Shown here: positions 3,969 through 58,101 of the stretch, piece after piece | Position numbering within the stretch: the stretch's first letter is position 1 | Layout of the letters: every line of letters starts with the position of its first letter | Virus record (IMG/VR): IMGVR_UViG_3300020576_003639 | Location: 1 to 64,000 of that record | Length of the DNA stretch: 64,000 nucleotides | Reading direction: 5' to 3' (one strand) | Source of the DNA: a virus | The notes under the pieces: generated by a model | What the model saw: the letters and a program-made list of their open reading frames with translations, nothing else | Told to the model about the DNA's origin: nothing | Databases searched by the model: none | Program-made: the position numbers and the translations under genes

Positions 3969-4547
3969 ATGAATGAAATTTGGACACCAATCATATGATT
4001 TGAAGAAGATTATGAAGTAAGTAATCTTGCAAGAGTTCGAGCTTTTAGAGATTCTTGAATAAAATATGTTGCTCTTAATACCTTAAAAAGTTGATATACA
4101 CAAGTATCTCTTAGAAAGAATTGAAAACAATATACATTTTATATTCATAGATTAGTATGAATTCATTTTGTAGATAATCCAAATAATTATCCATGTGTAT
4201 TGCATAAAAAAGAATCAGACCCTATGGATGATACTGCATGAAATTTATTTTGGTGAACACATAAAATGAATACACAAGATATGTATTCAAAAAATAGAGA
4301 TAATAGTTGGCTTAGAAAAAATCATCCAATGAAATGAGTATTTTGAAAAGATAATCCACAGAGTAGAAAAATCTGAAAATATTCTAAACAATGAAAACTT
4401 ATTGATATTTATTATTGAGTTCGAGAAGCTGAAAGAATTACATGATTATCTCGATCAAATATTTCTCAATGCTGCAGATGAAAAGCTTATAAAACCGTAT
4501 GATGATTTATATGGAAATATATTAGTGATGACTGCATCGTGGGTTAA
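3969..4547 (+). CDS. HNH homing endonuclease (NUMOD4 + HNH_3 type) with C-terminal HTH
   Basis: WTPIIGFEEDYEVSNLARVRAF...GYTQVSLRKNGKQYTFYIHRLVGIHFVDNPNN...VLHK...NL.WGT. C-terminal GLSRSNISQCCRGKAYKTVGGFIWKY. Nine TGA=Gly. Confidence 0.7.
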
Positions 4548-13449: not shown

Positions 13450-13974
13450 ATGGAAGAATGGAAAATAATTGGTAACTCTGTTTATGAAATTTCTAACTAT
13501 TGAAATGTGAGATCTAATTCTCATTTTCATAAGTGATCTTCTTATAAGAAATTACTTCGAAAAACTAAAACTTGATATCATCAGGCTTGTTTATATGTTT
13601 GAAAAAAACATATATATCCTTATATCCATAGACTTGTTGCTTTTTATTTTATAGAAAATCCTAATTGATATTTAGAAGTAAATCATATTGATTGAGATAA
13701 ATCTAATAATCATTTTTCTAATTTAGAATGGACTACTAGAAAAAATAATATGAAACATGCTTTTGCATTAGGATTAAATAAATCTCCTTTAACTTGAAAA
13801 TTTTGAAAAGATAATCCATTATCTAAAAAAGTTTATCAGTATAAAGATTGAATTCTTATCAAGGAATTTGATTCTTTAACTCAATGTGCTAATGAATTAT
13901 GATTTGATTTATCTGATTTATCTAAAATAGTAAGATGAATCAGAAAACATAAACACTTTACATTTACTTATTAA
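13450..13974 (+). CDS. HNH homing endonuclease (NUMOD4 + HNH_3)
   Basis: MEEWKIIGNSVYEISNYGNVRS...GYHQACLYVGKKHIYPYIHRLVAFYFIENPNGYLEVNHIDGDKSNNHFSNLEWTT. Confidence 0.7.
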
Positions 13975-25778: not shown

Positions 25779-26504
25779 CTAAATATACTTCCATTGATAT
25801 CATCAATGGAATTTCCTTTCTCACCTACAACACTTTCTAATAAGAGATCAAGTATATCAATCTCAAACATCATTAGCTCATTCATATATATTTATTAAAA
25901 TTCATTCTTTTGAAAATTTTCCAACACATTTTTTTGGATTATATATTTTTTTAAAATATTTATTTACATTTATTTCATTATCATGGGACCATATATATCA
26001 TCAAAATCTATGAGACTTATATAATCTAGCAAGAAATGATCTTTTTTTAAATAGATTTACAGTAATAACTTCATCAACCGATTTATACTTTTTAATAAAA
26101 TTTCATTCCAATGAATATTGAAATATTGGAGTACACTTTTTAAATGTAATAATACCACATCATCTTGCATGAATAGAATTTTCTTTGGCAGTACACCATT
26201 CTAAGGCCCACCAATAGTTAAATGTTTTAATAGCAGTAATATGATTCACTTGAGTATGAAAAGATTCTTTGAAAAGAAAAGCATTAGCTACAAGTTTATG
26301 TATTCTATATAGTGAATGCTTTCATTTATGCTTAAATGAAACTTGTAGATATCATTTTGGATGAATATGATTAGGTACAAATTTTAAAGTATACATATTC
26401 ATAACTCTACCAAAAGAACTTATCTGATATTTATCATCATAACCCGGAATATCTTTCCAGATCTCTATAGTAAAGAATTGAAATAGTAGAAAGTAGTAAT
26501 TCAT
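25779..26504 (-). CDS. HNH homing endonuclease (NUMOD4 + HNH_3)
   Basis: Minus frame ...IWKDIPGYDDKYQISSFGRV...GYLQVSFKHKGKHSLYRIHKLVANAFLF...VNHITAIKTFNYWWALEWCTAKEN... Nine TGA=Gly. Confidence 0.6.
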
Positions 26505-26812
26505 AATAACAAAAAAAAGACCATTCATCTGCGAGAACGAATAGGTCTTTAAATAAAGCAAGATTGCTCCCTCTCGCAGTTGGGAATAATCTTATGAACG
26601 AAGTATATTGATAAGTATTACATAGTCAATATGATAAGTAGGTCAAAAAAAATAATCGCTTTGGTATCAGTATACATGGGGCATAATGCTAAGTATTGGA
26701 TTATCCGAATGCTAAGTGTTCAAAAATAAAAAATAGGATAGCCACATATAGAGCGCCAATAAAAAACCCCCGGGATTGTTCCTGAGGGCTTTTCTTCTAT
26801 ACGAGAATGTTT

Positions 26813-28126: not shown

Positions 28127-28702
28127 TTAATATTTCCAAATAAATAATCATGCAGTTTTCTGCCCTCATCTTGCACACCTAGAAATTCAAGATCAATGTA
28201 TTCATAAAAATTCTCATGCTTCATAAGCTGATCAGTATGTCTTGATTAGATTTCAATTTAAATCATATTGAGATACATTTTTTGATGTTGGATGATTTGA
28301 TCATTTTTTTCATTCCCAAAATTTTGGATGTTTAGTTTGAAATATATTATTAGCAACTCAATGCTTATATTGATCTAATACATTTGAACTTCTAGTACCA
28401 TATCTCAAGTTATCAGGATGATTATTTTTTGGATTACCATCATTATGACAAACTTCCATTCATTTAGGGCAAGGTCATTCTTTTATAAGCATAACTATTT
28501 GATGAATTCAAAATGATTTTGATAATCAATGTTTATATAATGCAGTTTGCATGTGTCATGATTTTCAAATTCATAATGACATTATTTTAACTTTTCAATT
28601 GTATAAACTTCTGATCTGATTAGTAGAAATTTTTATTTCATAAATCCAATCATATCATGGAATTTTTATCCAAGAATCAACATCTATTGTTTTTCGCTTC
28701 AT
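28127..28702 (-). CDS. HNH homing endonuclease (NUMOD4 + HNH_3)
   Basis: MKRKTIDVDSWIKIPGYDWIYEIKISTNQIRS...GHMQTALYKHG...IHQIVML...EVCHNDGNPKNNHPDNLRYGT...GISRCARGGQKTAGLFIWKY. About 17 TGA=Gly. Confidence 0.65.
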
Positions 28703-30531: not shown

Positions 30532-30813
30532 TTAGGAGTTTTTAATCAACGATCGGAATTTCACCGAGAATCTACACCAAACCTTTTTGTAAGGTTTAGC
30601 TTCCATGAGGATTCCAGTAGTAGGAACTACGACTGTACGCCCCATAGCTTCTTTTACTCAGAGAGTACATAGCTCGTAAATCGAGATATCAGATCCATTA
30701 AGAAGTTCTTTTTTGATTTTATCAAAAATCACATTGATAACATGTGTTGCTTCAACTTGAGTCATTCAAGTTTCTTTTGCAAGATGTTTTGCCAAGTCTC
30801 GATTCCTTATCAT
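30532..30813 (-). CDS. hup: HU/IHF-family DNA-binding protein
   Basis: ...LAKETGMTQVEATHVINVIFDKIKKELLNGSDISIYELCTLGVKEAMGRTVVVPTTGILMEAKPYKKVWCRFS matches the HU fold pattern. Confidence 0.6.
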
Positions 30814-30866: not shown

Positions 30867-31145
30867 TTAATCTTCGAATACAAACCAATCATTTGCAAGA
30901 ATATCCGTTTGTGAAATTGTCCATGGAACAACTTTATTATCTGTAGTCTTCATTGCTACATATGCTCCATAAGGAACCATATCACCAAAGTGCTTTCTAG
31001 CAGCATCAGTTTGTGCCTGATATGCTGAAGCATCTACAAGATATATGAACATGTTCTTTCCATTCCATCATGCACGAGCTAAACAGCGTCAAGCATTGAG
31101 ATAGTCCATAACTATTCCAATACCAAAATTATCTTTAGGTCCCAT
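30867..31145 (-). CDS. DUF2829-like small phage protein
   Basis: ...AGWNGKNMFIYLVDASAYQ...MKTTDNKVVPWTISQTDILANDWFVFED, a family pattern recalled for DUF2829. Confidence 0.4.
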
Positions 31146-31169: not shown

Positions 31170-31442
31170 TTAATCTTTCCAAGTAATAGCTTTCACACAC
31201 CACATTTGTGATCCTTGAAGTTCAGTAATTGCTACAGAACATAGGCGTTTCACTTCTTGAGATTTTGTAGAAGATCGAAGATCATTCATCTCATCAATGA
31301 CAACAGCCATAATCTGCTTCACTTTATTAACTTCATCTGATCATCCAGGATTGAAGGTAAGGCCTACAGCCTTTTGTCCAAAACTAAGTTCAGGAACAGG
31401 AAGAGTAGATGGATCTGATTCAGGTACATCGTTAGGATTCAT
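31170..31442 (-). CDS. small conserved phage protein
   Basis: MNPNDVPESDPSTLPVPELSFGQKAVGLTFNPGGSDEVNKVKQIMAVVIDEMNDLRS...ITELQGSQMWCVKAITWKD. Confidence 0.35.
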
Positions 31443-32598: not shown

Positions 32599-32673
32599 TG
32601 GAGCGAAACGCGGGATTCGAACCCACGATGCCGGATTTGAAATCCAGAGTCTTAACCGCTAAACGAGTTTCGC
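32599..32673 (-). tRNA. tRNA-Gly with UCA anticodon (reads UGA)
   Basis: Minus-strand cloverleaf: acceptor gcgaaac/gtttcgc (G1:C72, C2:G71, G3:C70), discriminator U73 + CCA, T-arm gtggg-ttcgaat-cccgc, anticodon stem ctgga/tccgg with loop ttTCAaa. The Gly identity elements point to Gly and not to Trp or Sec. Confidence 0.75.
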
Positions 32674-33077: not shown

Positions 33078-33440
33078 TTATAAATTTAGTAAAGTGATAG
33101 TAATATCTTTGTAGATTTGTTTTCTAACTTCATGATATCTTTTCCAGCTTCATATTCAAGGTAGATTTATAAAGTTTTCTTCGGATTCAATGTATTTTAG
33201 TAAAATCTCTCTTATTTGTTTTTTAGATATAAGTTCCTCTTCTTCCATTCAAGTTAAATAATACTTTGTTCATTTTCTCTCTAACATTCAAAGCTCTATA
33301 AGTTCTGCATAGATTAGTGAGATTGAACGAGTAGATTTATATCAGATATATTTTTGAAGTTCTCTAATAGAAGGCATTCTATCAAATTCTGATACAAACT
33401 CTTTTAGTTTAGAGTATAGATATTGTGTATTGAATTTCAT
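33078..33440 (-). CDS. winged-helix transcriptional regulator (LexA-N-terminal-like wHTH; candidate repressor)
   Basis: ...MPSIRELQKYIGYKSTRSISLIYAELIELGMLERKGTKYYLTG. Divergent from the replication module. Confidence 0.45.
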
Positions 33441-34221
33441 AATTATAAAGTGTAAGTAACCTGACTTTCAGATTTACTCATGTCAGTAGTATACAGATCT
33501 GTAAATAATTCTATTTTCTTTGCCATACTAAAAGTTGTGTTTACTCAGTTACATTTAATATTAGTTTCTTTAATCTTTTTATGTAGGTCATCGGATATCA
33601 ATACTGTTTTAATTTACCATATCAATCAGCATCAGTATGTCATTGATATTCAATACATCAAGATTTCGATATAAATGTTTTTTCTAAGATTCTATCTATC
33701 ATGAAAATATATTGAAAGAAATAAGCTGCTTCATCGTATAACCGACAAGATAGAAGCAAGGTTTAGGTTTTGACCGAATGGACATACATCCGAGCTTTAG
33801 GCTCAGAAACCTTTTTGACAAGAAGGCAACCCAAACTTGTTCTCGGGGAAGATCGATGAGTGAAAAGTTCATTTAATCTTTTATCTCGGTTTCCTTTTGA
33901 ATGCTTATTGGCTATTCCATTATATACATATTCTAAAGAAAGCAAATAATTTATTAACTTTATTCTATAATTAAGGAATACTTATAGATAAGAAATTTTA
34001 TCAAAGACAAAATCGAGACAAAAGATTTGACTTCAAATAAAAAAAGAATACATTCTCTTCCGTGGTGACTTGTCGTTGCCCTCATGTATTTGCCTAAGAC
34101 CCAGGTACATGAGGTGTAACTCCTAAAAACTTTTACACCACACACTAACTCCAATCATGGCGGTCTTACACTCTCACGAGTGGCTGTGGTTGGAGTTTTT
34201 TATTTACTTAAAATTTCCAAT

Positions 34222-35055
34222 ATGCTCGATCAAGGTTACGGCATTATGCCAAATTCCATTCTTTTTAATAAAGAACTTTCAGATAAAGAAAAATTACTCT
34301 ATTGTCTGATATCGAGTTTATGTGCAAGTGAATGACATTCATGGGCCACGAATCAATATCTTTGAGAAAAGCTATGATTACATAAAGATAATATTTGAAA
34401 GTATCTATCTAAGATGGCAAAATCATGAATTATATTTCTACAAGATATTAATAATACAAGATATATCACAATATGTAAGATAGACGAAAACGCCTGGGGG
34501 GGTAGGTGAATTCACCTAGGGGGGGTAGACGAAAACACCTACCCTATATATAGGATGAATAGTATAAGTGAAGAAGATAAAGGAAAAGAAGAAACTTCTC
34601 ACATAGAAGAAAAGAATTCAACAGAGAAGTCTACAAAAAAGCTTTCTTCTTCTATACGAAAAGGTTCCAAACCTATCAGAGAAATTATTGTTCCGCCGGA
34701 AAAGCGATACATTGATGAAGTTCTCTGACAGAAACGATGAGTAGATAAGCTTTATGAGATACTTACTCTTCCTACGATGAAAGATTACGATGTTCTTGCA
34801 CTCGATGATAAAGAAGATCCACGATCATTCACGAAGATTATTTCTCTATACGAATGGCTTCTTGCATTCTTCCAGGAGAAATACGATGGAAAAATCTATA
34901 AAGACGATAATGGAAAAATGGTAGGATCAGGAATCATACTCAATGAACTCGATAAATTCATTGCATATTATTCCGAAAAAAAGGATGAAGACATTCTCGA
35001 TATCAAGGCAAGACTTCGAAAATGGGTTACAAATTCTCTCAAGTATGCGCTTTAA
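34222..35055 (+). CDS. phage replisome organizer / DnaD-like replication initiator (N-terminal wHTH)
   Basis: MLDQGYGIMPNSILFNKELSDKEKLLYCLISSLCASEGHSWATNQYLGEKLGLHKDNIGKYLSKMAKSGII matches the organizer N-domain pattern. Frame traced without a stop from 34222 through the G7 palindrome into the ORF starting at 34558. Confidence 0.55.
34481..34544. promoter_or_regulatory. ori-like element: direct iterons TAGACGAAAAC x2 flanking a palindrome cctGGGGGGGTAGGTGAATTCACCTAGGGGGGGtag, inside the replisome-organizer gene
   Basis: Repeats and palindrome read directly from the sequence. Confidence 0.5.
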
Positions 35056-35075: not shown

Positions 35076-36812
35076 ATGGTGGACATATTCAAAGAAATAA
35101 AAAATATAACTCTTACAGAAATCCTTGATAAGCTCTGAATCTTCTATGAAGTCGTATGAAATAATATCGAACTCTACGAAGGCGACAAACATACCGACTG
35201 ATGGCGTTGAGATATCGGATGAGGGTTTATCAAGGATTTTACTTGAAAGCGTGCACAGGGGGATAGAATCACTTTTGTGATGGGCTATCTTGGAATGGAA
35301 AAGGGTGAAGCAGTTCGATGGTTTAAAGATGAATTTCATCTTTATGATGATGGAGAGAAGGTAAATGTACGCCAAGAGATGCTTGCAATCGGTAGAGCTA
35401 CTATGGCAAAAGAGGAAACCGCATTAGCAGTAATAGAACCGAATCATGTTGATGTAAAGGCAAAGTGGGAAACAATGTGAGAACTTTCCCAGATTCAAAT
35501 TGATTATCTTACTTCTCGATCGGTAGATTATTCCAAGGTAAAAAGATATATTCGAAATAATATCTGATATGTTTGCTGTCCTGTTTCAGCGATATCATGA
35601 GCGAGTATCGATATGATCTCACTTCAAAGTCGTGATATTCATACTAAGAAATTCGTTATTGAGAAAGGAACACCAAGTAAATGATGCTTCATTTCTGCAA
35701 TAGATAAATCAAAAAAATATATCTATGTTGTCGAAGGAATGTTTGACTTTCTCACACTTGCACAGTACACAGATAATGTTATCGGTATGAAAAGTGCGAG
35801 TGATGGAGCTGATGTAGTAAAAGAATTTGCTAAGAAATGATATCTTCCGATTCTCATTCCCGATAATGATGAGGCAGGAAAAACTATGCTTACTTTGATG
35901 GCAAATGTCCCACATTCAGTATTCGATTTAGCTGAATACAATGTGAAAGACATCAATGAACTCCTGGTAAAATCAGAATATGGAGCATCTATACTCGAGA
36001 TTATTGAAGATCAGAGAACTCGACCACCACGAAATATCGATTCAGCTATGAAGAAACTTGATTCACTTCAAGCTCTTACTACCAAGCGATGACGACTCGG
36101 AGTTGATGGGCCACCTTCAATGAAGAAGATTACTGATCTGCATCAAGGAATTATTGAAGGGAAAGTATATACAATCTGAGCTTATTCAGGTCATGGAAAA
36201 TCTACACTCAGTTATGAGTATGCTTCATACTTTGTAAAGCAGAGAAAAAAAGTGCTATACTTTTCTGTCGAAGTAGATTCAGGATTACTTCTGAGTTATA
36301 TCGCTCGAAACTTTTACAAAGTTCCTCATAAAAGCATTATGGATCGTCAGCATAAAATCAATGCAAATGATTTTGATACACTTTATCTCTACGACAATGT
36401 TCGTGATCTCGAGACTATGAGTAAAATTGTTATGGAGGAAAAGCCTGATTATGTATTTATCGATTATGCACAGGGAGTTCGATGTGAATGAGCATGAATT
36501 TATGAAAAGACTACAAACTATGCACAGTCTATACAGGCATTGGCTATCGAAAGTAATGCAACTATCTTCTCGCTTTCTCAGCTCAATAACGATTCAAGGA
36601 ATAAAGATGGTGGAGATGTAACCCTTAAAGGATCAGGAGATCTATTCTCTGCAAGTGATGTAATCATTACTATTTCTAAGGATTGAGAATTTACAAAATG
36701 TGGTCTTATGAAAAATAAGTTCTGAAAAAAAGATTCATACTTTATTGAGTTTAATTACGATGTCGGAGGGCTTATGCTTATATCACAATCATATCAAAAA
36801 GATTGAGTTTAG
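35076..36812 (+). CDS. primase-helicase (TOPRIM primase + DnaB/gp4-like helicase)
   Basis: TOPRIM YIYVVEGMFDFLTLAQ and ILIPDNDEAGKTM. Helicase Walker A TIGAYSGHGKST (first Gly = TGA), Walker B VFIDYAQ, H3 SLSQLN, H4 GSGDLFSASDVII. Four track ORFs in one phase joined by TGA. Confidence 0.75.
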
Positions 36813-37718: not shown

Positions 37719-40700
37719 ATGGCCAACGATATTACAGCTCCACTAGAAGGTGCTGAAGCTCCTGGATTTTTCTCTCGAGGATGAGCGCTCGATAAAGGTA
37801 TACAATCAGTAGACTCTTTTTTCGAATGAGCAGCCAACATGGTTAAGGATACTACTGTAAAAGTAGTTACTTGACAATTTGATCTCAATCCAATGCTATC
37901 TGATCAGGATAAAGCAAAATATAATGTTCCACAACCGATCAGTGATAATGACCGAGCTCTGGCAAAAGAATCGAAAGCTATATCTGGTTGGCAGATGGCT
38001 AAAGATATTGGATGAGCTTTGATTGATTTTGGAAAAGATAAAATAGTATGAACAAATCTTTCCAGTAAATTGAATCAATGAATATCAGAAGATGACTTCA
38101 ATAAAACGATATCGAAATATCGTTGAGATATATCAAGCACGAATAAAATAATATCCGATATCATGTCCGCAGATCCTAAGTTTGCACAGTATCGTGATTT
38201 TGATTTTGCTTCTTACAAAAAATATCTTGATGCTAGGGGAATTACTTCAGTTCAAGATCCTGCAGATTATGAAGCATTTAAGAAAGCAGAAATGAGTAAG
38301 CTTAATGCTCTTGATCAACAACTCATTGTGTCCCAGTATCAGGAACTTCAGAATACTGTAAGTAAATATCAGCAACAGGCTCAGGCAAAACAAGCTGAAC
38401 TTGATTGATATCTCAACTCTGCAATCAAATGAGACTGAGAAAAAACTGGTGTACAGGTATTTGAGGATGTAGAAAAGGAATCACAGAACAGATTCAAGGA
38501 TAGCCAATACCTACAGTATAACCAAAAGGTAGCTACCTATGTTGACGAGATGGTCACTAAGGAACTCGAGAAAGATGGAAAATCAATATCTGGATTAGGA
38601 CAATCATTCACAAATCTTAAGGACTCTGTTGTGGAACAAATGACTGCATCTGAGATGTATCGTTTGGATCTTATCGGTATGGATGATCTTCCTGATAACG
38701 AAAAGTACGCGCAGATGTGGGGAGAAGCAAGTCAGAAATTCTACAACTTCAATTACGAGTTCATGCGTAGACTTTCTGCAGAGAAAGACAAGCCTGAAAA
38801 TAAATGAGTTGATGAGGTTGCGCTTCGTCAGAGAGTGCAATTAGAAACGTGGAGAGCTACTTCTCCTGAAGATAAAGAAAAGATGCGATGACGAGAAGCA
38901 TTAGCTACTGGAATTAATGCTATGGTAAATGCCAAACAATTGGGAGAACGTATTACTGATCTCAATCCTCAAGCTCTTCTTGATGGGCTATCTCTCGTAG
39001 GTACTACATTTCAATCCTATGTAGACCAAGCATTTGATTATAATCAGGAAATCCCACACTATATTCAGCAGGAGACTAGATCACTTCTTTATTCTGATGA
39101 GGGAAACCTCAGGAAATTTTGATCATATCTATCATACAATGCTGATGCTCTTGCATCGATGGCTATTCCAATAAAGGGAACTGGAATCGTGACTAAGGGG
39201 GTCGATAAGCTTATTGATGTACTCGCAAAGAATACAGATAAATTTGTCGGGATATCTACTAAGGTATGATTTACTCAATGATTTTTGAAGTTTATTCCAA
39301 ATGCAGCGAAGGGTATTTCTAATAGCCTAGTTAATGGAGCAGTAGGTGATCCAGTATTTGATAATCTCATGATGCAAGCGCCTACGGCTGCAGTTGAGAC
39401 AATGAATAATATTGCCAATCTATTCTTTGATGCCAGTCTATTTACTGGAGGTAAGTGACTTGTATACGGTTTAGAATGAACAAAAAATATGAATGGATTA
39501 ATGTTCAAGTTTCTCCACTGAGATGAGGCTGCAGCTGTTAAAGACTGGACTAAAGCATTCAATGATCACTATAATCCTGGACAAGCAATTAGCGAGGCAC
39601 AAGGTCGAGAGATTCTTGAGCAAGGCAAGAAGCTTTATGGTAACATGTATTCACCTCAAGAAATCAAAAAAACCTTCAATGAAAAATGAGGGATTTATCG
39701 TTATCTTGCGGACAATGTTTCCCAGATGACTGACTCTTGAATAAAAGAAGTACTCACTGGTAATGGTCTTGGAATTCGTATTGAGGATCTTGTAGGCATT
39801 CCAAGAAAAGAAATTGATAATCTCAATGGTCTTTTCGATGTTCATGCAAAAGTTTCTAATGATGAGACAAAGACTCGATTAGTATCGACTCGTATAGAAG
39901 AGAAACTCAATGCCATAAATGATTTTGTATCTAAGTGATCCCCTTATGATGATGTTATCATTCAGCAAAAGATGAGAACTAATCCTGAGTTTCTGAAGGA
40001 AGCAAAGGTAGTTGAAATAAAACTCGCTCAGATAAAGAGTCTTATGAAGGTTCCTAATTCTACCGATGAGATCAAGGGTCTTATTGGAGAAGTAGATGAT
40101 AGTATCCGTATGATGAAGGAGAACTATACCAATAGACAGTGGCCAACACAGGTCACGCTTGTAGATAGTGCATCCAAAAATGAAATCAAGATAGGGATAA
40201 AGGATCTCCGAGCAGATCTTGATGGAAAGAATTTCTCTGATATCGTAGCCGAAGGTCGTGTTACAATCAAGAAAGATACCAAAAATATCAAGCAATGAGA
40301 CTATTTCATCAAAGGAGCTGAGAACAATGTCTTTTCTTCTTATGTGGAAAGTTTCATGAAAAACATCGAGAATGATATTTCTGAGTTTGAAATAGCAAAT
40401 AATCTCGATCCTCTTACGGACAAGATTCGTCATTCTATTCAGAATGGTCTTCTCAATACTGGTAAGGTAGAGTTCTGATACCTTGCTAAATTTACCGGGG
40501 AGCAATATGATACTCAGATAAAGGCTCTTTGAGAATTCGTTAATAAGACTCTCAAGAATTTCTATGGTGAAAAATTTGTTAATCCTGAAGTACATTTTCT
40601 TGGAAAACAGCTTGTTAGTAATGAAGATGTAATAAAGGGATTCAATAATAATCCTGGATACATCAATCTCACATATGGTACATTTGCTAAGACAGATGAT

Positions 40701-43700
40701 GTTACAAAGATTACTGGTACAAAAAATATATTCTATGTATCTTTTGGAAAAGATATTGCTTCATCTGAAGTATTTGCCAAAAAACTCGATGGGAATCCTA
40801 AAGGAACATGAGCTACCGTTACTGCATATATCGCAAGCGCATCAAGTATCAACAAGCTTATTGTGAAATATGGCATTCAATCGGATTGATCTATTGATTT
40901 TTTCAAAGGGTTACAGAAGGCAAAGATTGTAGAATCTACAGCTAATGTAGATGGACTATTTATCGATTGAAAAATATCTCAATCAGCTATTGCAAAAATA
41001 CTTGATGATGCTATCAAGTGAGAAGATATGGATGATCTTACTAGAAAATGAATTCTTGACCTTGCTAATGGTCTATTCTCGGCATCAAGGCAAGAGGACT
41101 CTATGGTAATTAAGCCAATGATATATTCTCTAGTATCAAAATACTATGATAATAAGCCACTTATTGACGAGTTATTCACAAGATTCAGAATAGATAAGCC
41201 AGACTTCATCAAGGCATTTGCTGATATATTGATGAGTCCTGATACGTATAAAGACATTGCAGCGAAGATGGCATCTCGATGAGATCAAAAAGTTCTTACG
41301 GAATCATTCAGAGTAAAACATCAGCAAGCTTGGCTCGAGTATCATAATAGGCTTCAGTCTATTGTGGATAAACTTGATATCCAGATTGATGATGCTAAAG
41401 CCACGCGTAAGCTCACTGGATCAGCTGAGGCTCGAGAATTTATCGACATGAATATTGAAACTCTCAAGTCCAAAAAGTCTTCAGTACTCAAGGTAATGAA
41501 GAAAGAACAGGAGTTCAAGAATAATCTTCTCGAGAAAAATCTCCAAAATATCAATGTGGAATACTTGAAAAATATCTCTAATGATTTTTCTTTTACGAAA
41601 CTTCTTCGTAGAGAAAACCTAATAGGCAAAGGAAATCCAGAAGACCAACTCAAACAATATGTCTCAATGCGAGAACAGATCAAAGATCTCTATCCAAAGC
41701 ATAGAGATGTCTTTGATAGTCTCATTAGAGATATTGAGAAAGTCACTGATCCTATGGCTACTATGGCCGATCGTGCTAATCTTATCCAGAAATATGAGGA
41801 TATGGCGTTCTCATCTGATATTCTGAAGGATACCGTAGACAAGATGATTAGGCAGTATCTGTTTCCCCAGGATGGTATTTCTCTATACGATGTATCATAT
41901 CTCAGTAATATGATTGATTCGATGAAGGGAAAATACACTTATAATTTTGCCAAAGAAAATAACCCACTCAAGAAATGGTTATGAGGATGGATCAATAATA
42001 CGAACACCGGTCGTAATGATGTACTCGAGGCAAAGATCTCTGAGTATTTCAAAGAACCAACAGTCAAATCTGCTGATGAGATGTATGATAAGAATCCAGA
42101 GTTCAGAGATATGATTGATAGCCTTCGAGCTCAATCATCTTCAGAATGAGATGTAGATGTTCCAAAAGTCTATGTTAAGGCTATTCGTGATGGAAAAGAA
42201 TCTGTTCGAAAATTTATCTCTGAGATATTTCATAACATCGAGATAGATACCGATAGTCGTTGAAATATTAGCGCTGAGCTAGTGGATGACATATTAAATG
42301 AGTATGACATCATCAAGAAGCTTAAAGCCATCGCAAATCGCAAATTATCGAAGAATGATATCAATGTGTCGCTCATAGAGTGAGAAACAGAATTCGATAA
42401 GGTATTTTCAATCCGCAATGATAAGTACAATGAGAAGGTTCTTCAGATAGAAAACATGGAGAAAGCATGAATGAACTTCAGAGCTATCCGTGGATTTTCT
42501 GTAAACCAAGCATGATATATTAAAATTGGGGATACTACTCTCAACAAACTCTACGACCAGCATATAGTAGATTCTTTCATCAAAGATAAAGAGAATCCAA
42601 ATTTTGCTTACTCTACATCTTCAGAGAAGTATAAGCTTCTTACTAAGATTATAAATAATACCTTATCTGCTGAAGATTATAAAATATTAAATATTCAATG
42701 ATGAAAAGAGACAGTATCGTTAAATAAAATTAAAAATTTAATTGCTAAAAATGATAAGGAATTACTTACTAAGTATTTATCATTATCAAATAAAAAGTCA
42801 GACTCAATTGAATGAATCGTAGATTATATATCTTCTGATCTTAGATCTTGGATATTTGATTGAGATTGAACACTTAAAGAAAATATAAAAGCTAATTTAT
42901 CTGAAAAACAAATAGAGCAAAATTATAATACTTTTAAATCAAATTATTGAGAATGAAATAAGGATTTATTTGATTTTGAAGTATCTCTTATTAAGAAAAT
43001 ATATGAGAATATTGATTCTATAATTCAAGTAGAATGATCAGTTATTGATCGGAAATCAATTATTTCTCAGCTTGGAATCCCTGAGGATCATGTATTCGTA
43101 GGAAACTTTGGTGATAAAGATTCTCTCTACACTACTTACAAATCTGGTCTTGATATCTATACTGGTAAGGTTATTCCGGAAATAGAGGCATCCATCTACA
43201 AATATGAGTATGCTTTTGCTAATGGATATACTACTGGTAAGATGGAAAGTTTTGAACAATTCAAAAACAAGTTTCTTACAAAAAAGTTCTCTTCGTTCGA
43301 AGAATATAAGAACTATATGCATGATAATGTTTATGAAACTGTCAATGGAAAACGAGTGAACCAGTATATTCTTCCTCGTGATACTATCCGTAAGAGAGAG
43401 GCATTCAACATGAGTAACGATACTACTTTCGAGGATTATGTTGTGCCTACAAAGACTTATATCATCGAGAAGGAACTCAAGCAAATACCAGAACTCCAAA
43501 ATTTCCCTATGGTAAATGGAGAGTTTGATGGTGGAATAGATGATCTCATGAAACTTATCTCCGACTATCCTGAAAGTGAGGTAGCTACAGTTGTCCAAAA
43601 GAATTTGGATAACAATGTCTCAGTAGAGAAGATTATAAACTTTCTGAACACGACCTACAACAATGATCTTCAGGATGGTACTTCATTCGTATCCAATGAT

Positions 43701-46700
43701 CTCGCGAGAACTCGTGCATTTATACAGTGAGGGAACCGTGGGGTAAAAGATTTTGATGAAGGAAAACGACAATTCAAGGATCATTACTATGGAGATCTCT
43801 GAAACAAAAGATTTTGAGCAAAGACTTTGTTCAATGCTTCAGATATTCAGTTTGAATGAGCTCCTATCAAAAATGCTGTAGTCGTTGGTGATTCATCAAT
43901 GAAGCTCAAGGGTGGATACAAGAAGTATGATGAGCCGAAGGAGATCATGATCGATGGCAAGATGCATAAAGTTCTCGGGGAAGTGGAAGGAACCAATACT
44001 TCATTCTTCAAGAATGCAGCAAGTGATTCATTCAAAGACCATTCAGATCTCACGATGAGTGATTCTATCAAGGGTAGGATACCTGTAGAGCACGCAAAGG
44101 CTATTGAGCAACTTCAGATCCGTGATATAAAGCTCGCATTCCAGGAGGCCCTTTGAAGTCTTTCTGACTATAAGATATCTCTGAATTCCTTTGGAGATGT
44201 TACGGAACTTATCAAACTTATCAGTTCAGAGGCTAAGATTGGTATGGGTGCTGATGCAATAGTGAAGGGGAAGATGACAGATCTTCTCGTCAAGATTGAC
44301 GGTATTATCAACAAGCCAAAGAATCCAGGACAATCTATGTTCATCCGAGAATCGAATCTCGATATCGGTCGAAATGAAGTTATCATGAGTAAGGACTCGA
44401 GTTTCGTTATTCAGGCTCGTAAGGAAATTCAGGATGAGATCGATAAGCTCGATCCAAATACTGATGTAGAGAAGATCGCAGAGCTCAAGAAAGACATGAA
44501 GGATGGTCTATACACGGTAGGATACCGATATCCGGTTCCATCTATCTACAATCTTGGAGTATATAAGATCCGTATCCAAGAAGATCTTGATCCAAAAATA
44601 TTTGGACAGTACAAGAACATGGGTAAGGATCAGGTTATTACACATCCACTCACCACGTATATGAAGCTCGAGGGAGATAATGACGGTGACCACGTCTTCT
44701 TCTTATCTGCGAGATGAGAGATGGGTAAGATACTTTCCAATGCTGTTCTTTGAAAAAAACCAACAGAAGAAATCATTCCTATCCTCAAGTCAGGAAACTG
44801 GGATAATAAGTTTATCGTGGCAGAACAGGTTGAGAAGGGCATAGTCAATGACTCTGAGGATGTATCTCTCCTCGATTCTCGATCGATAGCACTTGAGGCA
44901 AAGGCTTCTATCGGTGTAGTATCGGCTACTCTACGTACTCTCGGTACACTGAGTCAGATGATGTGAGATTCGCTGAATGATGATAAGAAACTATTTTTCC
45001 AGGAGATTATTCCTTCTGAATCTGGGAAGGCAAAATCTTCTAATAGTGTGAAGACTCTCAAATTTATCAAGGATAAGATCGGTGACCTATCTTCAATAAA
45101 GAACAATCCAGAATTTGATGCACTTGCTGCATCGATTCTTCAGACAACTCTCGACTTTGGTAACTCAGGAAAGACAACATTTGACAAGGATTGGTATATG
45201 GATCTTTTGGAAAAGGTATGAATACCTCGAGAAAAGATTCCTGATATATACTACTCTATCATCTCCCCATTATCTATTGGGTACAATAAGACTGACATCA
45301 AACAAGGATACAAGCTTTGACTTGCTACGTTTGCACCTTCGTATAAAAAAGATCTCCTCTATTGAGTTACTGGTTCAAAAAGAGATATCTATGAGTTTCT
45401 TCTTGAGGGAGAAGTGTACAATAAGCGATCGATAGCTCAATTTGTAAATGATGTGAACAAGACTCATGATCTCAAATTCATCACAGATACATTGATGTCA
45501 TCATCAAAGGATATCAATGTGAAAGCAATTATCGATTATATGAATAAAGAGATCAAGAACTTCTCTACTCTTGGTTATATCAAGAAAGAGTACCGTGGTG
45601 ATTTCAAAAAATTCATAGGATCTCTTGGACATTCAGATCAGGTTCTGGAAACAATGAAAATGATAGATGACTATCATGAGATCCAAGATAACTACCTGGC
45701 AAAGAAAGAAATCAGTAAGAATCTTATTTCAAAAGTAAATAGTTTGAGCCCTGATGAGCGTGCTATAGCTGCACTATATGGTGCAGCTAATGGGGAAAGT
45801 AATCTATTCAATTACTTCACTACTCCTGAGAAACTTCTTTATCTCACGTCATCTGATCAGACATTTGTAAAAGATATAGGATCAGTATATGGAATAAAAC
45901 TTCCAAAAGATTCTCTTGATTATTGATCATTTAAAGATGAGATCATAAAAAATATATCAGATCTTACTAATGATCTGAAGTGAGAAAAGGATGAGTGAGC
46001 AATAGATGCAATCGAGTATAATCTCGAGAAACAGAAAGCAGCACTCAGCGATATCGATCAGCTTATTACAGATCTCGAGGCTAAGAAGGATATTCCTGAT
46101 GACATTGTGATAGATGAAGTCAAGATCCCAGAAGTATGAGAAGTCGTGTTTCCAGAGTTCACATTTGCAGAACTCGATACATCTCCACAATCCGCTAATG
46201 AAATTCTTTCAGAGCATGTCGATATGGTAACGCTCGCTAGAGATTGATGGAAGCTCACTATGCAAAGCATGTTCAATAAGTATAGTCCTCGATTGGCTCT
46301 CAATTTTGATACATTGGCAGACTTCCTCAATGCCAAGAATAGGGTTCTATCGAATGCTAGTAACGAACATGTCCGTCAGTTCGGTGATCTATTCTTTGGA
46401 TACAAAAATTCTATATACCGACAACTCAAGAAAGCATGAGTTCCTAAAGAGAAGCTCGATCGTTTAGGTCTTGTTATTCAACACTCTCTGATTGGTAATG
46501 CTGGTGGAGTATTCCATTGAATGGAACAGGATGTAATCATCAAGAAGCTTACTGGTACTCTCGAGGAATATGGTGTAGGTCATCTTATCAATGATCCAAA
46601 ATTTATGGATGAGATCTTTGACTACAATGATAAGGTAATATCTGTAGCAGTAGAGAAGCTTAATCAGATTCAAGAATCATTTCACTTCGATATCTACAAT

Positions 46701-49700
46701 TCGTATAAGGATCTCGATCTCTCTATGATCACAGATCTCTTCGAGGCTCATAAGTGAGATGCACAGTTTGCCCTTAAGCTCACTGGTATTAAAGATCGAC
46801 AAGCATTCGAGAAATACATAATGGATAATGCAGCACAGATGGGGGAAAAACCATTGGAAGCAACAGTCAGATCAATGGGGAATGCGGTATATAAGAATCA
46901 TAGTGGTATGGACTTCGTATTGAACTTTGTGAAATGAGTTCATTACGAGATGACATATGGAACCGCAGCAACATTACTCACTCAGAATAATATAGTTGCC
47001 GGCCTTACTCAGATTCTTCCAAATTATACAGAGCTCCGATCGTTTATTGATAAAGATCCTTCTGCTATACGAGAATGACTTTATGTAATGTCGAGATATA
47101 ATCTCCTCGACGCTGAAGATGTACTGCAAATGGGTACATGATTCTGAAAGAATATGAAGAATACTTGGCTCGGATGAGTAATCCAGAAAGCAACGAAAGA
47201 TCTCACAGAGGGAACACTATCTGCAGTTTGAGTTACGAAGAATAAAGCTATACGAGCATCAGAGTTCGTTGATTCCGTAATGAACAATATGCTTGGATTC
47301 AATGACTGGCCGCTTGAGAATCTTCGTAAGATAGTCGCTACCAAGAAAGCAATGGATCAGCTATGATATAAAACTGCGAAAGAACTAGAGGATGCAATAG
47401 AAAGAGGGTGATTAGATTTTGAGATGGCATTCAGATCACATGTAAGAAGAAACTTTGCCAATACTGGATGATGAGTAGTGTCATCTTCCCCAATTGCGTC
47501 AGGAACAGTATTCGAAAATTCATATGAATACTTGAGAACAGGAATAGTCCCAGTAGACTTCTTCGTAGAATTTGGTGTGAAGTCCCTCTGATATCTTATG
47601 TGATGGTCATTTCATAAGTCGGCTACTCTCTTAGAGAAAGAATCAGCATTATTCACATGATTAAAGAAGCTTGTCATAGACAAAGATCCTAGAGCATTCA
47701 AGGCACACTTCAGTGATTGGGCTGCATATAACCTCATGTTGGGAAGACAGGTAGGAACAACAATGGGTCTCTATCTTAAATTCCAGAAATATGAGAAAGA
47801 TAATGATGATCGTATATCTTTGGCATCATTTCAGAAACAGTTCAATAATGCTTTTGTAGCAATACTAATTCCTCTCGAACGACATTTCGCAGCATTCGAA
47901 ACTGCTGAAAAACTTGGGACTGGATCAGATGCAACCCTCTATACCATGAATAGTGTCTTCAAACAGATGACTCGTCTATTCAAACAATGAGCGTTCTTCA
48001 ATACAATGTTTGATCGTTATAGGGAGAAAGAGGCATTAGGTGAAGCAGATATGCTTGATGCAATGCAATATGCAATGGATGTTCATTATACTGCATATAT
48101 GAGATTCTCTGGGATGCAGACTACCAATGATTATTATAACACCCTTGGACAGCAAACTAATCTTGGAATCTTATGAGTAGGTGGTAATACACTTCAAGAT
48201 GATATTGCAAAAGAATTGATGGAATGAAGTACCTTTACATCTTGGAAAGAAAAATGATTCATCTGAAGTCTTCTATCAGGATTCAGTCAAATGTTTAGGA
48301 CATCGGATACAGATCTCTCAATGAGCGTAGCACAGGATCTTGCAAAAGAGATTCGTGATAGAGTCACTCGTGATCCACAGTTATCAAAACTTCTTAAAGG
48401 ATGACAGATTGGTACTGGAATACAGGACTATAATATCACTAATCTTGTAGGAAATAACAAGATAATGTCTCCTGAGGAAGAATGAGCTACATCAGATATA
48501 TGGAAAGAAATTCAGTACTATGCCTATAAGAGCATCGATAAAGATGGAAAGCTTAAGGTGTACGGATCTGATGGAAAACTTATTGTCCAGGACAAGATTC
48601 AACAGATTCTCGAAGAGAGAATCACCAAGGAGCTGGCAAAGAAATGAATCAATATTTCTGATATCATTGCTAGATGACCTGGTTACGATCCAGCTCTTTT
48701 GAAAACTATTGCAGTACTAGGTCTTGATTCAGAGCTTAAGACTCCGCTAGTGATTGCAACTCTTATGGAAATGGAGAATAAGAAGCTCAATGCAGATAGA
48801 AAGAAGACGGAGTGAGTTCTCACCGGTGAGAAGTCGGCATATGGAACTCCATATAAAACTCTTACAACAGAACAGTATATCCGATCTCAGCGAGATATTA
48901 TTCTGAAGTACCAAGAATACTTCAATCTTGATAATAATCTAGTGCAGTCCATCATAGAGAAACACATTGCCAAGAATAATGTTGATCTTTTCGAGAAGTT
49001 CGATAAGGTGACAAATCTTAAATTTATCAAGAACGATGTATACGATCTGGTGAAGAGAGAGTATCTAGCTAGAAGTGTTATGAATAACTGAGATACGAAG
49101 GTTTCATCACTTCAGAGTAGATACGCTCTTGCATATAAGGGAATAAAAGATTCAGAGACATGAGTACAAGTTGTACTTAATCATCTCAGAGAAATTGAAT
49201 CGCTTCCTGCTATGGATGCTAAGACGAAGCTCGCGAATCAAGCAGCAGCTCTTATGAGCCTTAATACAACTCAATACGGATTACTCAAGAATAATAAAGA
49301 GTTTGCTAAACTTACGGAAGATTCTCAGAAGCAAATTACCAATTGGTTATTCAAAGTATCATCAGCAAGTCTTGATTTTGATAGCAATACAATGGCATCA
49401 AAAATGAATCAGGCTGCATGATCTCGTCAGGCCACTGGTAAATGATATGCAAGAGTTCTTCCTAAGCCTCAAAGCTCATCATTCTCATGACAGAGACCAA
49501 ACTTTTCTCAGCAGTTTTCTCCTATTAGAGATTTCATTCCTGGAAAGGAGAAATATCTTTCTTCTGATCCGAATAGATTTCTACAGGCAAAACAAGATTT
49601 TATTCCTCGGAATAATCTCTTTAATCCTGCGCAATTCCCAATCGTTCAGGAGTATGCAAAAATTATGATTAGTAACATATACTACGGTTATGAATCAAAA

Positions 49701-49877
49701 GGAACTATTCGCACTGGTTCTTGAGATAAAAAGTTTGATAAAACTCAGAATACGAGTATAAAGATAGCGAAACCAAAGAAAGCCAAAGCCACAAAAGAAT
49801 TTAAAAAATTCAAGATAGCTCCAAAAGTATCTATGTGAATGCGGCCGGATCTTCCACTCGCTAACTATTGAGACTAA
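37719..49877 (+). CDS. giant protein (about 4052 aa) with a multisubunit-RNAP beta-prime-like DPBB catalytic domain (DxDGD). Candidate crAss-like virion RNA polymerase / giant virion protein.
   Basis: Twelve track ORFs all in phase 0. The gap 39122-39972 was verified codon by codon: nine TGA and no TAA/TAG. Frame-0 stops are at 37701 (TAA) and 49875 (TAA). The region near 44520-44700 reads YRYPVPSIYNLGVYKIRIQ...GKDQVITHPLTTYMKLEGDNDGDHVFF. This parallels beta-prime NRAPTLHRLGIQAF...[26 protein letters not shown]. Confidence 0.7.
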
Positions 49878-57504: not shown

Positions 57505-58101
57505 ATGAGCATTACCTACGCACAAATGCAAACTCTCGTAAAGCCATACTTCCTTTCTCGAGGATGAGATGATCTTTGTAATCCTGATAGATTAATGTTT
57601 TATACAAATTCATCTATTCAAGATATTTATAATTTTGATGGAATGTCAGAACGATATATTACCGAGACAATCACTTCTTATGTTGATGAAGGGATTTATC
57701 GTAAATTTGTTTCTACTTATCCTATAGACAAAATGGAAGAAGCATTTGATCAAAATGGATCAGAGCTTAGTCCTACACTTTATATTCCTTGTGCTTGTGA
57801 ACTCAAGTTCCAGGGAAAGAATATTTTTACATCTCAGGATGTAGAAAGTATATCATGTACTTATATCAAGCTTTATGAATGGGCTCAATGGCCTTTAGAT
57901 AAAGATGCTATTATTCCTTTATCAGATAAATACATTCCTGCTCTTACAAAATTTATTTATGATTGGGCTGCACCGATAAATCTTATGGCAGGAGAGTCAG
58001 CTACATTTGACTTTTTCTCTCATGGTATGAATCGTCTTACTACCATTTCTAATAATGATGGTATCACGAATACTTTTAATGTTAAACCTGCAAGAAAATA
58101 A
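57505..58101 (+). CDS. structural protein (head-tail connector/completion candidate)
   Basis: 198 aa. Position only. Confidence 0.35.

What the first reader, a model, noticed from the sequence alone, without database searches (positions are those of the whole stretch)
34222..34560. Origin-like iteron + G7-flanked palindrome embedded in the coding sequence of the replisome-organizer gene
TAGACGAAAAC occurs twice (34481-34491 and 34526-34536). The copies flank cctGGGGGGGTAGGTGAATTCACCTAGGGGGGGtag, in which a perfect 18-bp palindrome is flanked by two G7 runs, and ACCTACCC follows. All of this lies in frame inside a DnaD/replisome-organizer-like gene that sits directly upstream of the primase-helicase. 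This recalls ori lambda inside gene O. The G-runs could also form G4 structures.
Basis: partly seen in the sequence, partly recalled or inferred. Interest (0 to 1): 0.7.

Follow-up and report, generated by a model that had tools for sequence, protein, structure and literature searches.

The report
Replication origin inside phage initiator gene
A phage that reads TGA as glycine very probably carries its replication origin inside its own replication-initiator gene, as phage lambda does, so this is a well-supported new example of a known arrangement.

Summary
The window is a ~65-kb phage that reads TGA as a sense codon (code 25, Gracilibacteria-type). ORF 34222-35055 encodes a 277-aa initiator: an N-terminal winged helix (Pfam HTH_36), a disordered linker and a helical C-terminal domain. 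A Toprim-DnaB primase-helicase gene follows. The element is three 16-bp dyad iterons (34481-34541) with a central A-tract, separated by G7 runs at a 22/23-bp period. Then come CCC, a TATATATA box that is invariant among relatives, a purine-rich AT tract and a conserved inverted repeat. Eleven relatives keep this architecture at the same gene position. Each has its own iteron sequence, repeated within the phage (86% identity within, 56% between). Iteron 2 is read in a different frame from iterons 1 and 3, so selection acts on the DNA. Iteron sequence tracks the recognition helix. Three unrelated N-terminal domains, each with its own repeats, are fused to one shared C-terminal domain. The layout matches ori-lambda in gene O, the pSK41 Rep boxes and SPP1 oriL. 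No binding or replication data exist. G-quadruplex formation is unsupported. Verdict: new member of a known kind, moderate interest.

The parts
34222..35055 (+). Replication initiator gene, 277 aa, read with TGA = Gly (8 in-frame TGA codons)
   Evidence: ORF under a TGA-sense code. Pfam HTH_36, 31.4 bits against a cut-off of 25. PHROG replication-initiation, O-like and DnaD-like families, E 1e-7 to 7e-10. 58 homologues.
34237..34482 (+). Coding region of the N-terminal winged-helix DNA-binding domain (aa ~6-87; HTH_36 match aa 18-71)
   Evidence: AlphaFold model of the 77%-identical P0005 gives pLDDT 80-92 for aa ~6-87. Nearest folds are the RepA_N initiators 4pql/5kbj/4pta and the DnaD NTD, with weak scores.
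34481..34496 (.). Iteron 1, TAGACGAAAACGCCTG (its last base is shared with the G-run)
34496..34502 (+). G7 spacer 1 (G6 in L003, L004, L005, L006, L016)
   Evidence: A C6 spacer holds the same position in Butyrivibrio virus Ceridwen.
34503..34518 (.). Iteron 2, TAGGTGAATTCACCTA. It is a perfect 16-bp palindrome, is read in a different codon phase from iterons 1 and 3, and contains an in-frame TGA.
   Evidence: codon phase 2 against phase 1.
34519..34525 (+). G7 spacer 2 (G7 in all close relatives)
   Evidence: AGGGGGGGT is invariant.
34526..34541 (.). Iteron 3, TAGACGAAAACACCTA. With its flanking GGG and CCC it forms an extended dyad.
34541..34564 (.). ACCCTATATATAGGATGAATAGTA: the CCC plus TATATATA box. 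It is the longest nucleotide-invariant run in the gene among five phages and is the proposed start of the unwinding element.
   Evidence: 24-nt invariant run against 11 nt for the next longest. 6 of 6 synonymous sites are identical against a 41% background, P=0.005. CCCTATATATA is kept in a different reading frame in L006.
34545..34644 (+). AT-rich tract that is purine-rich on the + strand (proposed DNA-unwinding region). It encodes part of the disordered linker.
   Evidence: 71% purine over 34545-34644, in the top 0.05% of 100-nt windows. Duplex stability is in the weakest ~3-10%. For 34545-34600, AT is 0.73 and purine 0.71, against 0.74 and 0.67 for the lambda tract.
34603..34655 (.). Conserved inverted repeat, ATAGAAGAA (34603-34611) and TTCTTCTAT (34647-34655), shared by all three N-terminal-domain types
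   Evidence: I1; invariant runs of 11 and 10 nt; same repeat in L010 and L011; 4 of 4 synonymous sites identical, P=0.03.
34684..35052 (+). Coding region of the helical C-terminal domain (aa ~155-277). It is shared by initiators with three unrelated N-terminal domains and is the presumed helicase-recruiting domain.
   Evidence: pLDDT ~80-87. Conserved behind N-terminal types 1-3. No Pfam family.
35076..36812 (+). Primase-helicase gene (Toprim + DnaB_C), 578 aa. Its product is the presumed client loaded at the origin.
   Evidence: Pfam DnaB_C 2.8e-12 and Toprim_2 3.1e-6. PHROG 239, DNA primase/helicase, 1e-38. Syntenic in relatives.
34027..34205 (+). Context: a promoter-like site (34027-34054) and a strongly folding leader that ends in a long hairpin plus T-run 17 nt before the initiator ATG. 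This is probably regulated read-through into the replication genes.
   Evidence: z = -5.6 to -5.9; a hairpin plus U-run is present in all five phages examined.

Best explanation
The element is the phage's replication origin (or its core), embedded in the linker-coding part of the gene for its own initiator protein. Proposed mechanism: dimers of the initiator's N-terminal winged-helix domain bind the three 16-bp dyad iterons, each made of 5-6-bp inverted arms around a GAAAAC-type A-tract. The 22/23-bp spacing, about two helical turns, puts the sites on one face of the helix, so the bound proteins can assemble into a higher-order complex. That complex destabilises the adjacent TATATATA box and the purine-rich AT tract. 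The conserved C-terminal domain then brings in the Toprim-DnaB primase-helicase encoded by the next gene. The peptide encoded by the origin DNA is only a tolerant, disordered linker. Shown here by computation: the identity of the genes; the three-iteron architecture; conservation at the DNA level; co-variation of the iterons with the DNA-binding domain; the invariant adjacent box; and the disordered linker. Inferred, not shown: binding, oligomerisation, unwinding, helicase recruitment and the actual replication start point.
For: (1) The gene is an HTH_36 initiator upstream of a primase-helicase. (2) Relatives keep 'three dyad iterons + G6-7 spacers + CCC + TATATATA' at the same codons. Each has its own iteron: L003 GACGTGGACGCC-type; L004 3 x TTGTTGAAAACGACAA; L005 TGGGTGAATTTACCCA; L006 AGGAAGAAAATTTCCA; L016 TAGTCAAAAATGACTA; variants without long G-runs occur in L001, L007, L008, L009 and L017. 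Mean identity is 0.86 within a phage and 0.56 between phages. (3) Selection acts on DNA. The 22/23-bp period puts iteron 2 in another codon phase, so L004's three identical copies encode IVENDK, CGKRQ and VVENDN. CCCTATATATA is kept in another frame in L006. The 24-nt box is invariant, with 6/6 synonymous sites fixed, P=0.005. (4) Specificity coupling. Window and L002 share the recognition helix, and their iteron arrays are 60/61 identical against 82% for the rest of the gene, P=6e-5. Helix distance correlates with iteron distance, r=0.69, P=6e-4. N-terminal types 2 and 3 carry different repeats in front of the same C-terminal domain. (5) The iteron pattern occurs nowhere else in the window. 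(6) The encoded segment, aa 88-154, has pLDDT <50. (7) The layout equals ori-lambda: iterons TCCCTCAAAACGAGGGAA and relatives at 20/24/23-bp spacing in mid-gene, then an AT-rich purine-rich tract and an inverted repeat (PMC7466680). It also equals pSK41 Rep (PMC5703833), the RepA_N iteron design (PMC7145576) and SPP1 oriL (PMC6316719). (8) A cultured relative, Butyrivibrio virus Ceridwen, has 3 x TGAACAAAWRTTCATG with ACCCCCCA spacers followed by AT-rich 15-mers.
Against: There is no experimental or read-depth evidence that replication starts here. The AT tract is only moderately unstable (weakest ~3-10% of windows). The least stable DNA nearby is in the upstream intergenic region at 33913-34013, in the top 0.1%. 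The skew minima lie 0.3-1 kb upstream and coincide with the switch in gene orientation, so they are not independent evidence. The helix-iteron correlation is partly explained by shared phylogeny. In this window the outer iterons have imperfect dyads (4 of 8 symmetric pairs). Iterons can also serve as autoregulatory or copy-control sites.
Confidence: 0.8

Rival explanations
1. The iterons are binding sites for the initiator but act only in control (autorepression by roadblock, handcuffing or incompatibility). Replication would then start elsewhere, for example in the AT-rich divergent intergenic region at 33441-34221.
For: The least stable DNA of the neighbourhood (33913-34013, top 0.1%) and the cumulative AT-skew minimum (33,697) lie in that intergenic region. 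Iterons of many replicons have dual roles (general knowledge).
Against: The intergenic region has no repeats that match or co-vary with the DNA-binding domain. Its conserved block is the same in L010, whose initiator has a different N-terminal domain. That block shows RNA-type compensatory pairing and promoter-like motifs, so an ncRNA plus promoters explains it better. An invariant box and an AT tract sit immediately next to the iterons, as in proven origins.
Confidence: 0.1
2. The repeat is a protein feature: a Gly-rich linker with a duplicated DEN motif, selected at the peptide level.
For: The protein alignment shows a twice-repeated short peptide around GG...GG in every lineage.
Against: The middle DNA copy is read in a different frame and encodes an unrelated peptide, yet it keeps the DNA sequence. 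L004 has three identical 16-mers. The repeated peptide differs completely between lineages while the DNA architecture is constant. The segment is modelled as disordered. Synonymous sites next to it are frozen.
Confidence: 0.02
3. A small mobile insertion: 34 bp flanked by an 11-bp target-site duplication (TAGACGAAAAC), inserted in frame.
For: The exact 11-bp direct repeats are 45 bp (15 codons) apart.
Against: No homologue lacks the segment. Every lineage has its own three-copy array at the same codons. The exact element is absent from the viral collection, and the window holds no other copy.
Confidence: 0.01
4. The G7 runs are the functional core. They would act either as slippage-prone tracts that produce truncated DNA-binding-domain-only isoforms, or as a G-quadruplex with a hairpin loop that regulates expression.
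For: G runs of 6 or more are rare in the window: five loci, 2.0 matches expected. G6-7 spacers are conserved in seven relatives, and C6 spacers in Ceridwen. Any frameshift truncates the protein soon after the DNA-binding domain.
Against: The distance to the next stop after a shift varies from 2 to 40 codons, with no conserved pattern. Ceridwen has the run as C on the coding strand, and L008, L009 and L017 lack long runs, so the feature is neither strand-specific nor universal. The canonical G4 pattern is not met: the central loop is 16 nt and the first spacer is G6 in most relatives.
Confidence: 0.04

Closest known systems
ori-lambda inside gene O of lambdoid phages
   Same: The origin lies in the middle of the initiator gene, between the N-terminal DNA-binding part and the C-terminal recruiting part. 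Several ~16-19-bp imperfect inverted-repeat iterons have a central A-tract and G/C tracts (lambda TCCCTCAAAACGAGGGAA; L017 ATCCTCAAAAATGAGGAT). Spacing is about two helical turns (20/24/23 bp in lambda, 22/23 bp here). An AT-rich, purine-skewed tract follows on the 3' side (AT 0.74 and purine 0.67 in lambda; 0.73 and 0.71 here), and then an inverted repeat. The N-terminal domain and the iterons are exchanged together as a specificity module (PMC7466680).
   Different: There are three iterons, not four to six. The iterons are separated by long homopolymer G runs. The protein matches Pfam HTH_36, not Phage_rep_O. The partner is a fused Toprim-DnaB primase-helicase encoded by the phage, rather than a P protein that hijacks host DnaB. 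The host uses genetic code 25, and one iteron contains an in-frame TGA.
RepA_N plasmid replicons (pSK41 Rep, pTZ2162 RepA, pAD1)
   Same: An N-terminal DNA-binding domain binds repeats located centrally within the rep gene. The central domain, encoded by the ori DNA, is a dispensable linker. A separate C-terminal domain recruits replisome parts (PMC5703833). [quoted passage not shown] RepA_N structures are among the nearest folds to the N-terminal domain (4pql, 5kbj, 4pta).
SPP1 oriL within gene 38 (replisome organizer G38P) and similar origins in phages of Firmicutes
   Same: Direct repeats bound by the origin-binding protein lie inside its own gene, next to an AT-rich unwinding element, upstream of the helicase genes (PMC6316719). 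Cultured relatives of the N-terminal domain are annotated as replisome organizer or replication initiator. Butyrivibrio virus Ceridwen shows the same layout of three iterons, homopolymer spacers and an AT-rich tract.
   Different: No separate helicase-loader gene lies between the initiator and the helicase. No second origin copy was found in the window. No biochemical data exist.

Membership tests
Pfam HTH_36 winged-helix replication initiators | Match to PF13730 above its gathering score | tested here: met
   31.4 bits against a cut-off of 25, aa 18-71; 32.7 bits for the N-terminal fragment.
Lambda O / ori-lambda type | Initiator belongs to the Phage_rep_O family by sequence | tested here: not met
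   No Pfam Phage_rep_O hit, even at E<=10. There is only a PHROG 'replication initiation O-like' profile hit (phrog_678, E=2.6e-9) alongside five other initiator PHROGs.
Lambda O / ori-lambda type | Iterons lie inside the initiator gene, between the DNA-binding part and the recruiting part | tested here: met
   Codons 87-107 of 277, against codons 117-145 of 299 in lambda O. The domain boundaries come from the structure model.
Lambda O / ori-lambda type | Three or more imperfect inverted-repeat iterons spaced about two helical turns apart, with an AT-rich tract on one side | tested here: met
   Three 16-mers spaced 22 and 23 bp apart, with the AT tract at 34545-34600. Lambda sequence for comparison.
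Lambda O / ori-lambda type | The initiator binds the iterons and unwinds the AT tract, and replication starts there | not testable with these tools
   Needs EMSA or footprinting, KMnO4 or P1 nuclease assays, and marker-frequency analysis.
RepA_N replicons | N-terminal domain belongs to Pfam RepA_N (PF06970) | tested here: not met
   No hit at E<=10. A profile search of PDB sequences finds only MarR/ZitR-type wHTH proteins at E>=0.013.
RepA_N replicons | N-terminal domain has the DnaD-NTD-like fold | tested here: inconclusive
RepA_N replicons | Semi-palindromic direct-repeat iterons that converge on a poly-A tract, located centrally in the rep gene and encoding a dispensable linker | tested here: met
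   Examples are TTGTTG-AAAA-CGACAA and TAGTCA-AAAA-TGACTA. The encoded segment has pLDDT <50. Dispensability itself was not tested.
G-quadruplex-forming element | Four G-tracts of at least 3 G with short loops (N1-7), conserved in relatives | tested here: not met
   Only GGG-G-GGG / 16-nt loop / GGG-G-GGG is possible in the window. The first spacer is G6 in L003-L006 and L016, the run is C6 in Ceridwen, and long runs are absent in L008, L009 and L017. Biophysical formation was not testable.

The most novel reading that the evidence does not exclude
The homopolymer G6-7 spacers (C6 in Butyrivibrio virus Ceridwen) may be a functional, conserved part of a distinct iteron class used by HTH_36-type phage initiators in unrelated host phyla. 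They might act as a rigid or wing-contacted phasing element. Alternatively, after unwinding they might form a structured single strand (a hairpin-looped G-tract structure) that serves as the loading signal for the primase-helicase. In that case the three co-circulating cassettes of N-terminal domain plus repeats would form a natural system of origin-specificity (incompatibility) types among phages of code-25 CPR bacteria.
Probability: 0.15. Interest if true: 0.6.

Novelty: new member of a known kind. Interest (0 to 1): 0.45.

Why it matters
No replication origin has been defined for any phage of Gracilibacteria or Absconditabacteria, which are uncultured CPR bacteria using genetic code 25. This locus gives a precise, testable prediction, about 180 bp at 34481-34655. 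The relatives offer a ready-made natural experiment: at least nine different iteron sequences paired with variant recognition helices, and three unrelated DNA-binding domains joined to one recruiting domain. This could be used to study how initiator-origin specificity evolves, to build replicons for these genetically intractable hosts, and to annotate origins in other phages with HTH_36 initiators. It is also a clear example of overlapping DNA and protein codes, because the same 16-mer is read in two frames. It does not reveal a new principle, since lambda, SPP1 and pSK41 already show the arrangement.

Tried and rejected
- **Table-11 ORFs.** They are misleading here. I replaced them with a TGA-sense gene map.
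- **Collection scans.** The exact element gave no hits in viral contigs. The invariant 21-mer gave none in viral or metagenome contigs and one MAG contig of the L005 lineage. The comparative set therefore came from protein homologues.
- **Extra iteron copies.** A search of the whole window found nothing above chance.
- **Rfam.** Only tRNAs were found in 31-37 kb.
- **Skew.** Minima lie near the element but coincide with the change of gene strand, so I treat them as uninformative.
- **Duplex stability.** The tract next to the iterons is only moderately unstable and the intergenic region is weaker. This is kept as evidence for the rival explanation.
- **Sequence membership.** Tests for Phage_rep_O, RepA_N and DnaD families all failed.
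- **Frameshift products at the G-runs.** No conserved pattern.
- **G-quadruplex.** Only a pattern-level check was possible. The 16-nt loop exceeds what the available folding tools model.
- **RepA_N review.** The PMC id I recalled is not held, so I used PMC5703833 and PMC7145576 instead.

Full report
**Context.** The window has 35% G+C. Under the standard bacterial code it holds only short ORFs. If TGA is read as a sense codon, stop-free stretches of at least 100 aa rise from 10.8k to 39.4k residues, and the longest reaches 4057 aa. The resulting gene map is that of a large tailed phage. TGA most likely means glycine (code 25), for three reasons:
- The phage carries a tRNA with anticodon UCA at 32599-32673. 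Its sequence has G1-C72, C2-G71, G3-C70 and U73. These are bacterial tRNA-Gly identity elements, from my own knowledge.
- In-frame TGA in the window aligns with GGA in L003 and L004.
- One homologue is deposited as a Candidatus Gracilibacteria protein.

Phages of code-25 hosts are described in PMC10746230.

**The observation.** The perfect palindrome is 16 bp, not 18. The repeat finder shows a 23-nt tandem unit. Comparison with relatives shows the true anatomy: three 16-bp units at 34481, 34503 and 34526, separated by G7, followed by CCC and TATATATA. G7 runs are far rarer than this by chance (0.32 matches expected). The iteron consensus occurs nowhere else in the window above chance.

**The gene and its neighbours.** ORF 34222-35055 encodes 277 aa. 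It has a Pfam HTH_36 domain at aa 18-71 and matches several PHROG replication-initiator families. The next gene is a Toprim-DnaB primase-helicase. An AlphaFold model of the 77%-identical homologue P0005, which carries the same element, divides the protein as follows:

| Residues | Region | pLDDT |
|---|---|---|
| ~6-87 | winged-helix domain | 80-92 |
| 88-154 | segment modelled as disordered | <50 |
| 155-266 | helical C-terminal domain | ~80-87 |

The iterons are codons 87-107, at the start of the disordered segment. The nearest solved folds to the N-terminal domain include the staphylococcal RepA_N initiators and the DnaD N-terminal domain. The scores are weak and sit among generic winged-helix hits. 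By sequence, only HTH_36 is significant.

**Comparative evidence.** This is the core of the argument. Fifty-eight homologues were found, and the DNA of twelve was retrieved. In the protein alignment, each lineage shows its own short peptide repeated twice around a Gly-rich centre. The DNA explains why:

| Locus | Iterons | Spacers | What follows |
|---|---|---|---|
| L002 | same as the window (1 nt different) | G7, G7 | CCC TATATATAGG |
| L003 | GACGTGGACGCC-type | G6, G7 | CCC TATATATAGG |
| L004 | three perfect copies of TTGTTGAAAACGACAA | G6, G7 | CCC TATATATAGG |
| L005 | TGGGTAAATTCACCCA, TGGGTGAATTTACCCA, TGGGTGAAAATACCCA | G6, G7 | CCC TATATATAGG |
| L006 | AGGAAGAAAATTTCCA-type | G6, G7 | CCCC TATATATATA |
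| L016 | TAGTCAAAAATGACTA-type | G6, G7 | CCCC TATATATATA |

L001, L007, L008, L009 and L017 have the same design with shorter or no G-runs and an AT-rich tract after it. Mean identity of the 16-mers is 0.86 within a phage and 0.56 between phages.

**Selection acts on DNA, not on the peptide.**
- The 22/23-bp period is not a multiple of three, so iteron 2 is read in a different phase from iterons 1 and 3. It keeps the DNA sequence although the peptide it encodes differs.
- The motif CCCTATATATA is kept in L006 in a different frame.
- The 24 nt after iteron 3 (34541-34564) form the longest invariant run in the gene among five phages whose proteins are only 55-81% identical to the window's. The next longest run is 11 nt.
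- All six synonymous sites in that box are fixed, against a gene-wide rate of 41% (P=0.005).

**Coupling to the DNA-binding domain.**
- Window and L002 have the same recognition helix, and their iteron arrays are 60/61 identical against 82% for the rest of the gene (P=6e-5).
- Lineages with altered helices have altered iterons. The distance correlation is r=0.69 (permutation P=6e-4), although shared descent contributes to it.
- Some homologues have a completely different N-terminal domain (type 2: L010; type 3: L011) joined to the same linker and C-terminal domain. They carry different repeats and palindromes at the junction.

The DNA-binding domain and its repeats therefore travel together as a cassette. 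This is how lambdoid phages exchange the O N-terminus with its iterons.

**Flanking features.** After the iterons come the TATATATA box and a tract that is 73% A+T and 71% purine on the coding strand. That purine bias is in the top 0.05% of the window. Duplex stability is only in the weakest ~3-10%. Next comes an inverted repeat, ATAGAAGAA/TTCTTCTAT, whose arms are among the longest invariant runs. It is shared by all three N-terminal types. Single-strand folding of the array gives hairpins comparable to those of ori-lambda.

**Comparison with known systems.** The lambda record shows four iterons (TCCCTCAAAACGAGGGAA and relatives) at codons 117-145 of O, spaced 20, 24 and 23 bp apart. They are followed by a tract with AT 0.74 and purine 0.67, and then an inverted repeat (PMC7466680). 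The pSK41 Rep protein binds four Rep boxes located centrally in its own gene. The ori-encoded central domain is a dispensable linker, and the C-terminal domain binds primase (PMC5703833). RepA_N iterons are described as semi-palindromic repeats converging on a poly-A tract (PMC7145576), which is the design seen here. SPP1 oriL lies within gene 38 next to an AT-rich unwinding element (PMC6316719). Distant relatives of the N-terminal domain in cultured Firmicutes phages are annotated as replisome organizer or replication initiator. One of them, Butyrivibrio virus Ceridwen, has three TGAACAAAWRTTCATG units at a 24-bp period with ACCCCCCA spacers, followed by three AT-rich 15-mers, at the same place in its gene.

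**Rivals.**
- An origin in the upstream intergenic region is the main alternative, because that region holds the least stable DNA and the AT-skew minimum. However, it lacks cognate repeats. Its conserved block is the same whatever the initiator's N-terminal domain, and it behaves like a structured RNA with promoters.
- The peptide-repeat, mobile-insertion and slippage/G-quadruplex readings are each contradicted by the comparative data.

**Limits.** Everything here is computational. Binding, unwinding, helicase recruitment and the actual start site are inferred by analogy. The role of the G-run spacers is unexplained.

**Verdict.** It is a new member of a known kind: an origin embedded in the linker-coding part of the initiator gene. 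It is the first specific origin prediction I am aware of for phages of code-25 CPR bacteria (a literature search, surfaced none), and it comes with an unusually informative set of natural variants. Confidence in the origin interpretation is about 0.8. Interest is moderate, 0.45.

Noticed in passing
whole window; tRNA at 32599-32673 (-): The phage uses TGA as a sense codon throughout, early replication genes included. It encodes a tRNA with anticodon UCA that has Gly-type acceptor features (G1-C72, C2-G71, G3-C70, U73). TGA aligns with GGA in relatives, so the code is 25 and the host is of the Gracilibacteria/Absconditabacteria type.
   Followed up: partly
window 33712-33918 (-), with a promoter-like TTGCTT...TATAAT at ~33925-33950 (-): A ~200-nt intergenic block is conserved in L002, L004, L005 and L010. 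Its consensus fold has 50 pairs, 16 of them with compensatory double changes. One hairpin has a constant CCUAAAGG loop and a stem that differs in every phage. There is no Rfam match. This is a candidate new phage ncRNA lying next to the tRNA genes.
   Followed up: partly
window 34027-34205 (+): A promoter-like site is followed by a leader that folds strongly (z about -5.6 to -5.9). The leader ends in a long hairpin plus T-run only 17 nt before the initiator ATG. A hairpin plus U-run at this position is present in all five phages, even where the sequence differs. This suggests regulated read-through (attenuation or antitermination) into the replication genes, or an sRNA gene.
   Followed up: partly
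window 34507-34509: The palindromic iteron 2 contains an in-frame TGA (AGG TGA ATT), as do the iteron 2 copies of L004 and L005. This origin sequence could not sit in this reading frame in an organism with the standard code.
   Followed up: yes
window 30867-31145 (-) and 31170-31442 (-): Two small genes in the divergent early operon match the Thoeris anti-defence Tad2-like domain (E=9e-21) and the Acb2/Tad1 hairpin domain (E=1e-7). These are anti-defence sponge proteins in a phage of a CPR bacterium. The same genes occur in relatives.
   Followed up: partly
window 30532-30813 (-): A phage-encoded HU/IHF-like protein (Bac_DNA_binding, E=3e-14) is conserved in relatives in the operon that diverges from the replication genes. 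It could assist origin bending or unwinding.
   Followed up: no
window 37719-49877 (+): A single ORF of 4052 aa with 94 in-frame TGA codons lies two genes downstream of the primase-helicase. Relatives have ~3980-aa counterparts. Its function was not examined.
   Followed up: no
window 58432-58439 and 58533-58538 (+), inside ORF 58101-59906: A G8 run and a G6 run lie 100 nt apart within a 601-aa late gene. Apart from the origin and one site at 25703, these are the only other G runs of 6 or more in the window. No iteron-like sequence flanks them. They could be slippage-prone tracts.
   Followed up: partly
window 33078-33440 (-): A 120-aa ORF with a weak LexA-type DNA-binding match (E=0.0025, below the cut-off) sits at the divergent junction facing the initiator gene. 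It is a possible early regulator or repressor.
   Followed up: no
L013 (Clostridium phage HM T) 1188-1355; L014 (Butyrivibrio virus Ceridwen) 1164-1273: The annotated 'replisome organizer' or hypothetical genes of two cultured Firmicutes phages contain unannotated iteron-like repeats and TAATAATAC-type AT-rich tandem repeats just after the winged-helix domain. These are probably their origins too.
   Followed up: partly
window 3969-4547, 13450-13974, 25779-26528 (-), 28127-28702 (-): Several ORFs are very rich in in-frame TGA (11-20 codons). Their N-termini resemble HNH/AP2-type homing endonucleases (for example ...IWKDIPGYDDKYQISSFG). I judged this by eye only.
   Followed up: no
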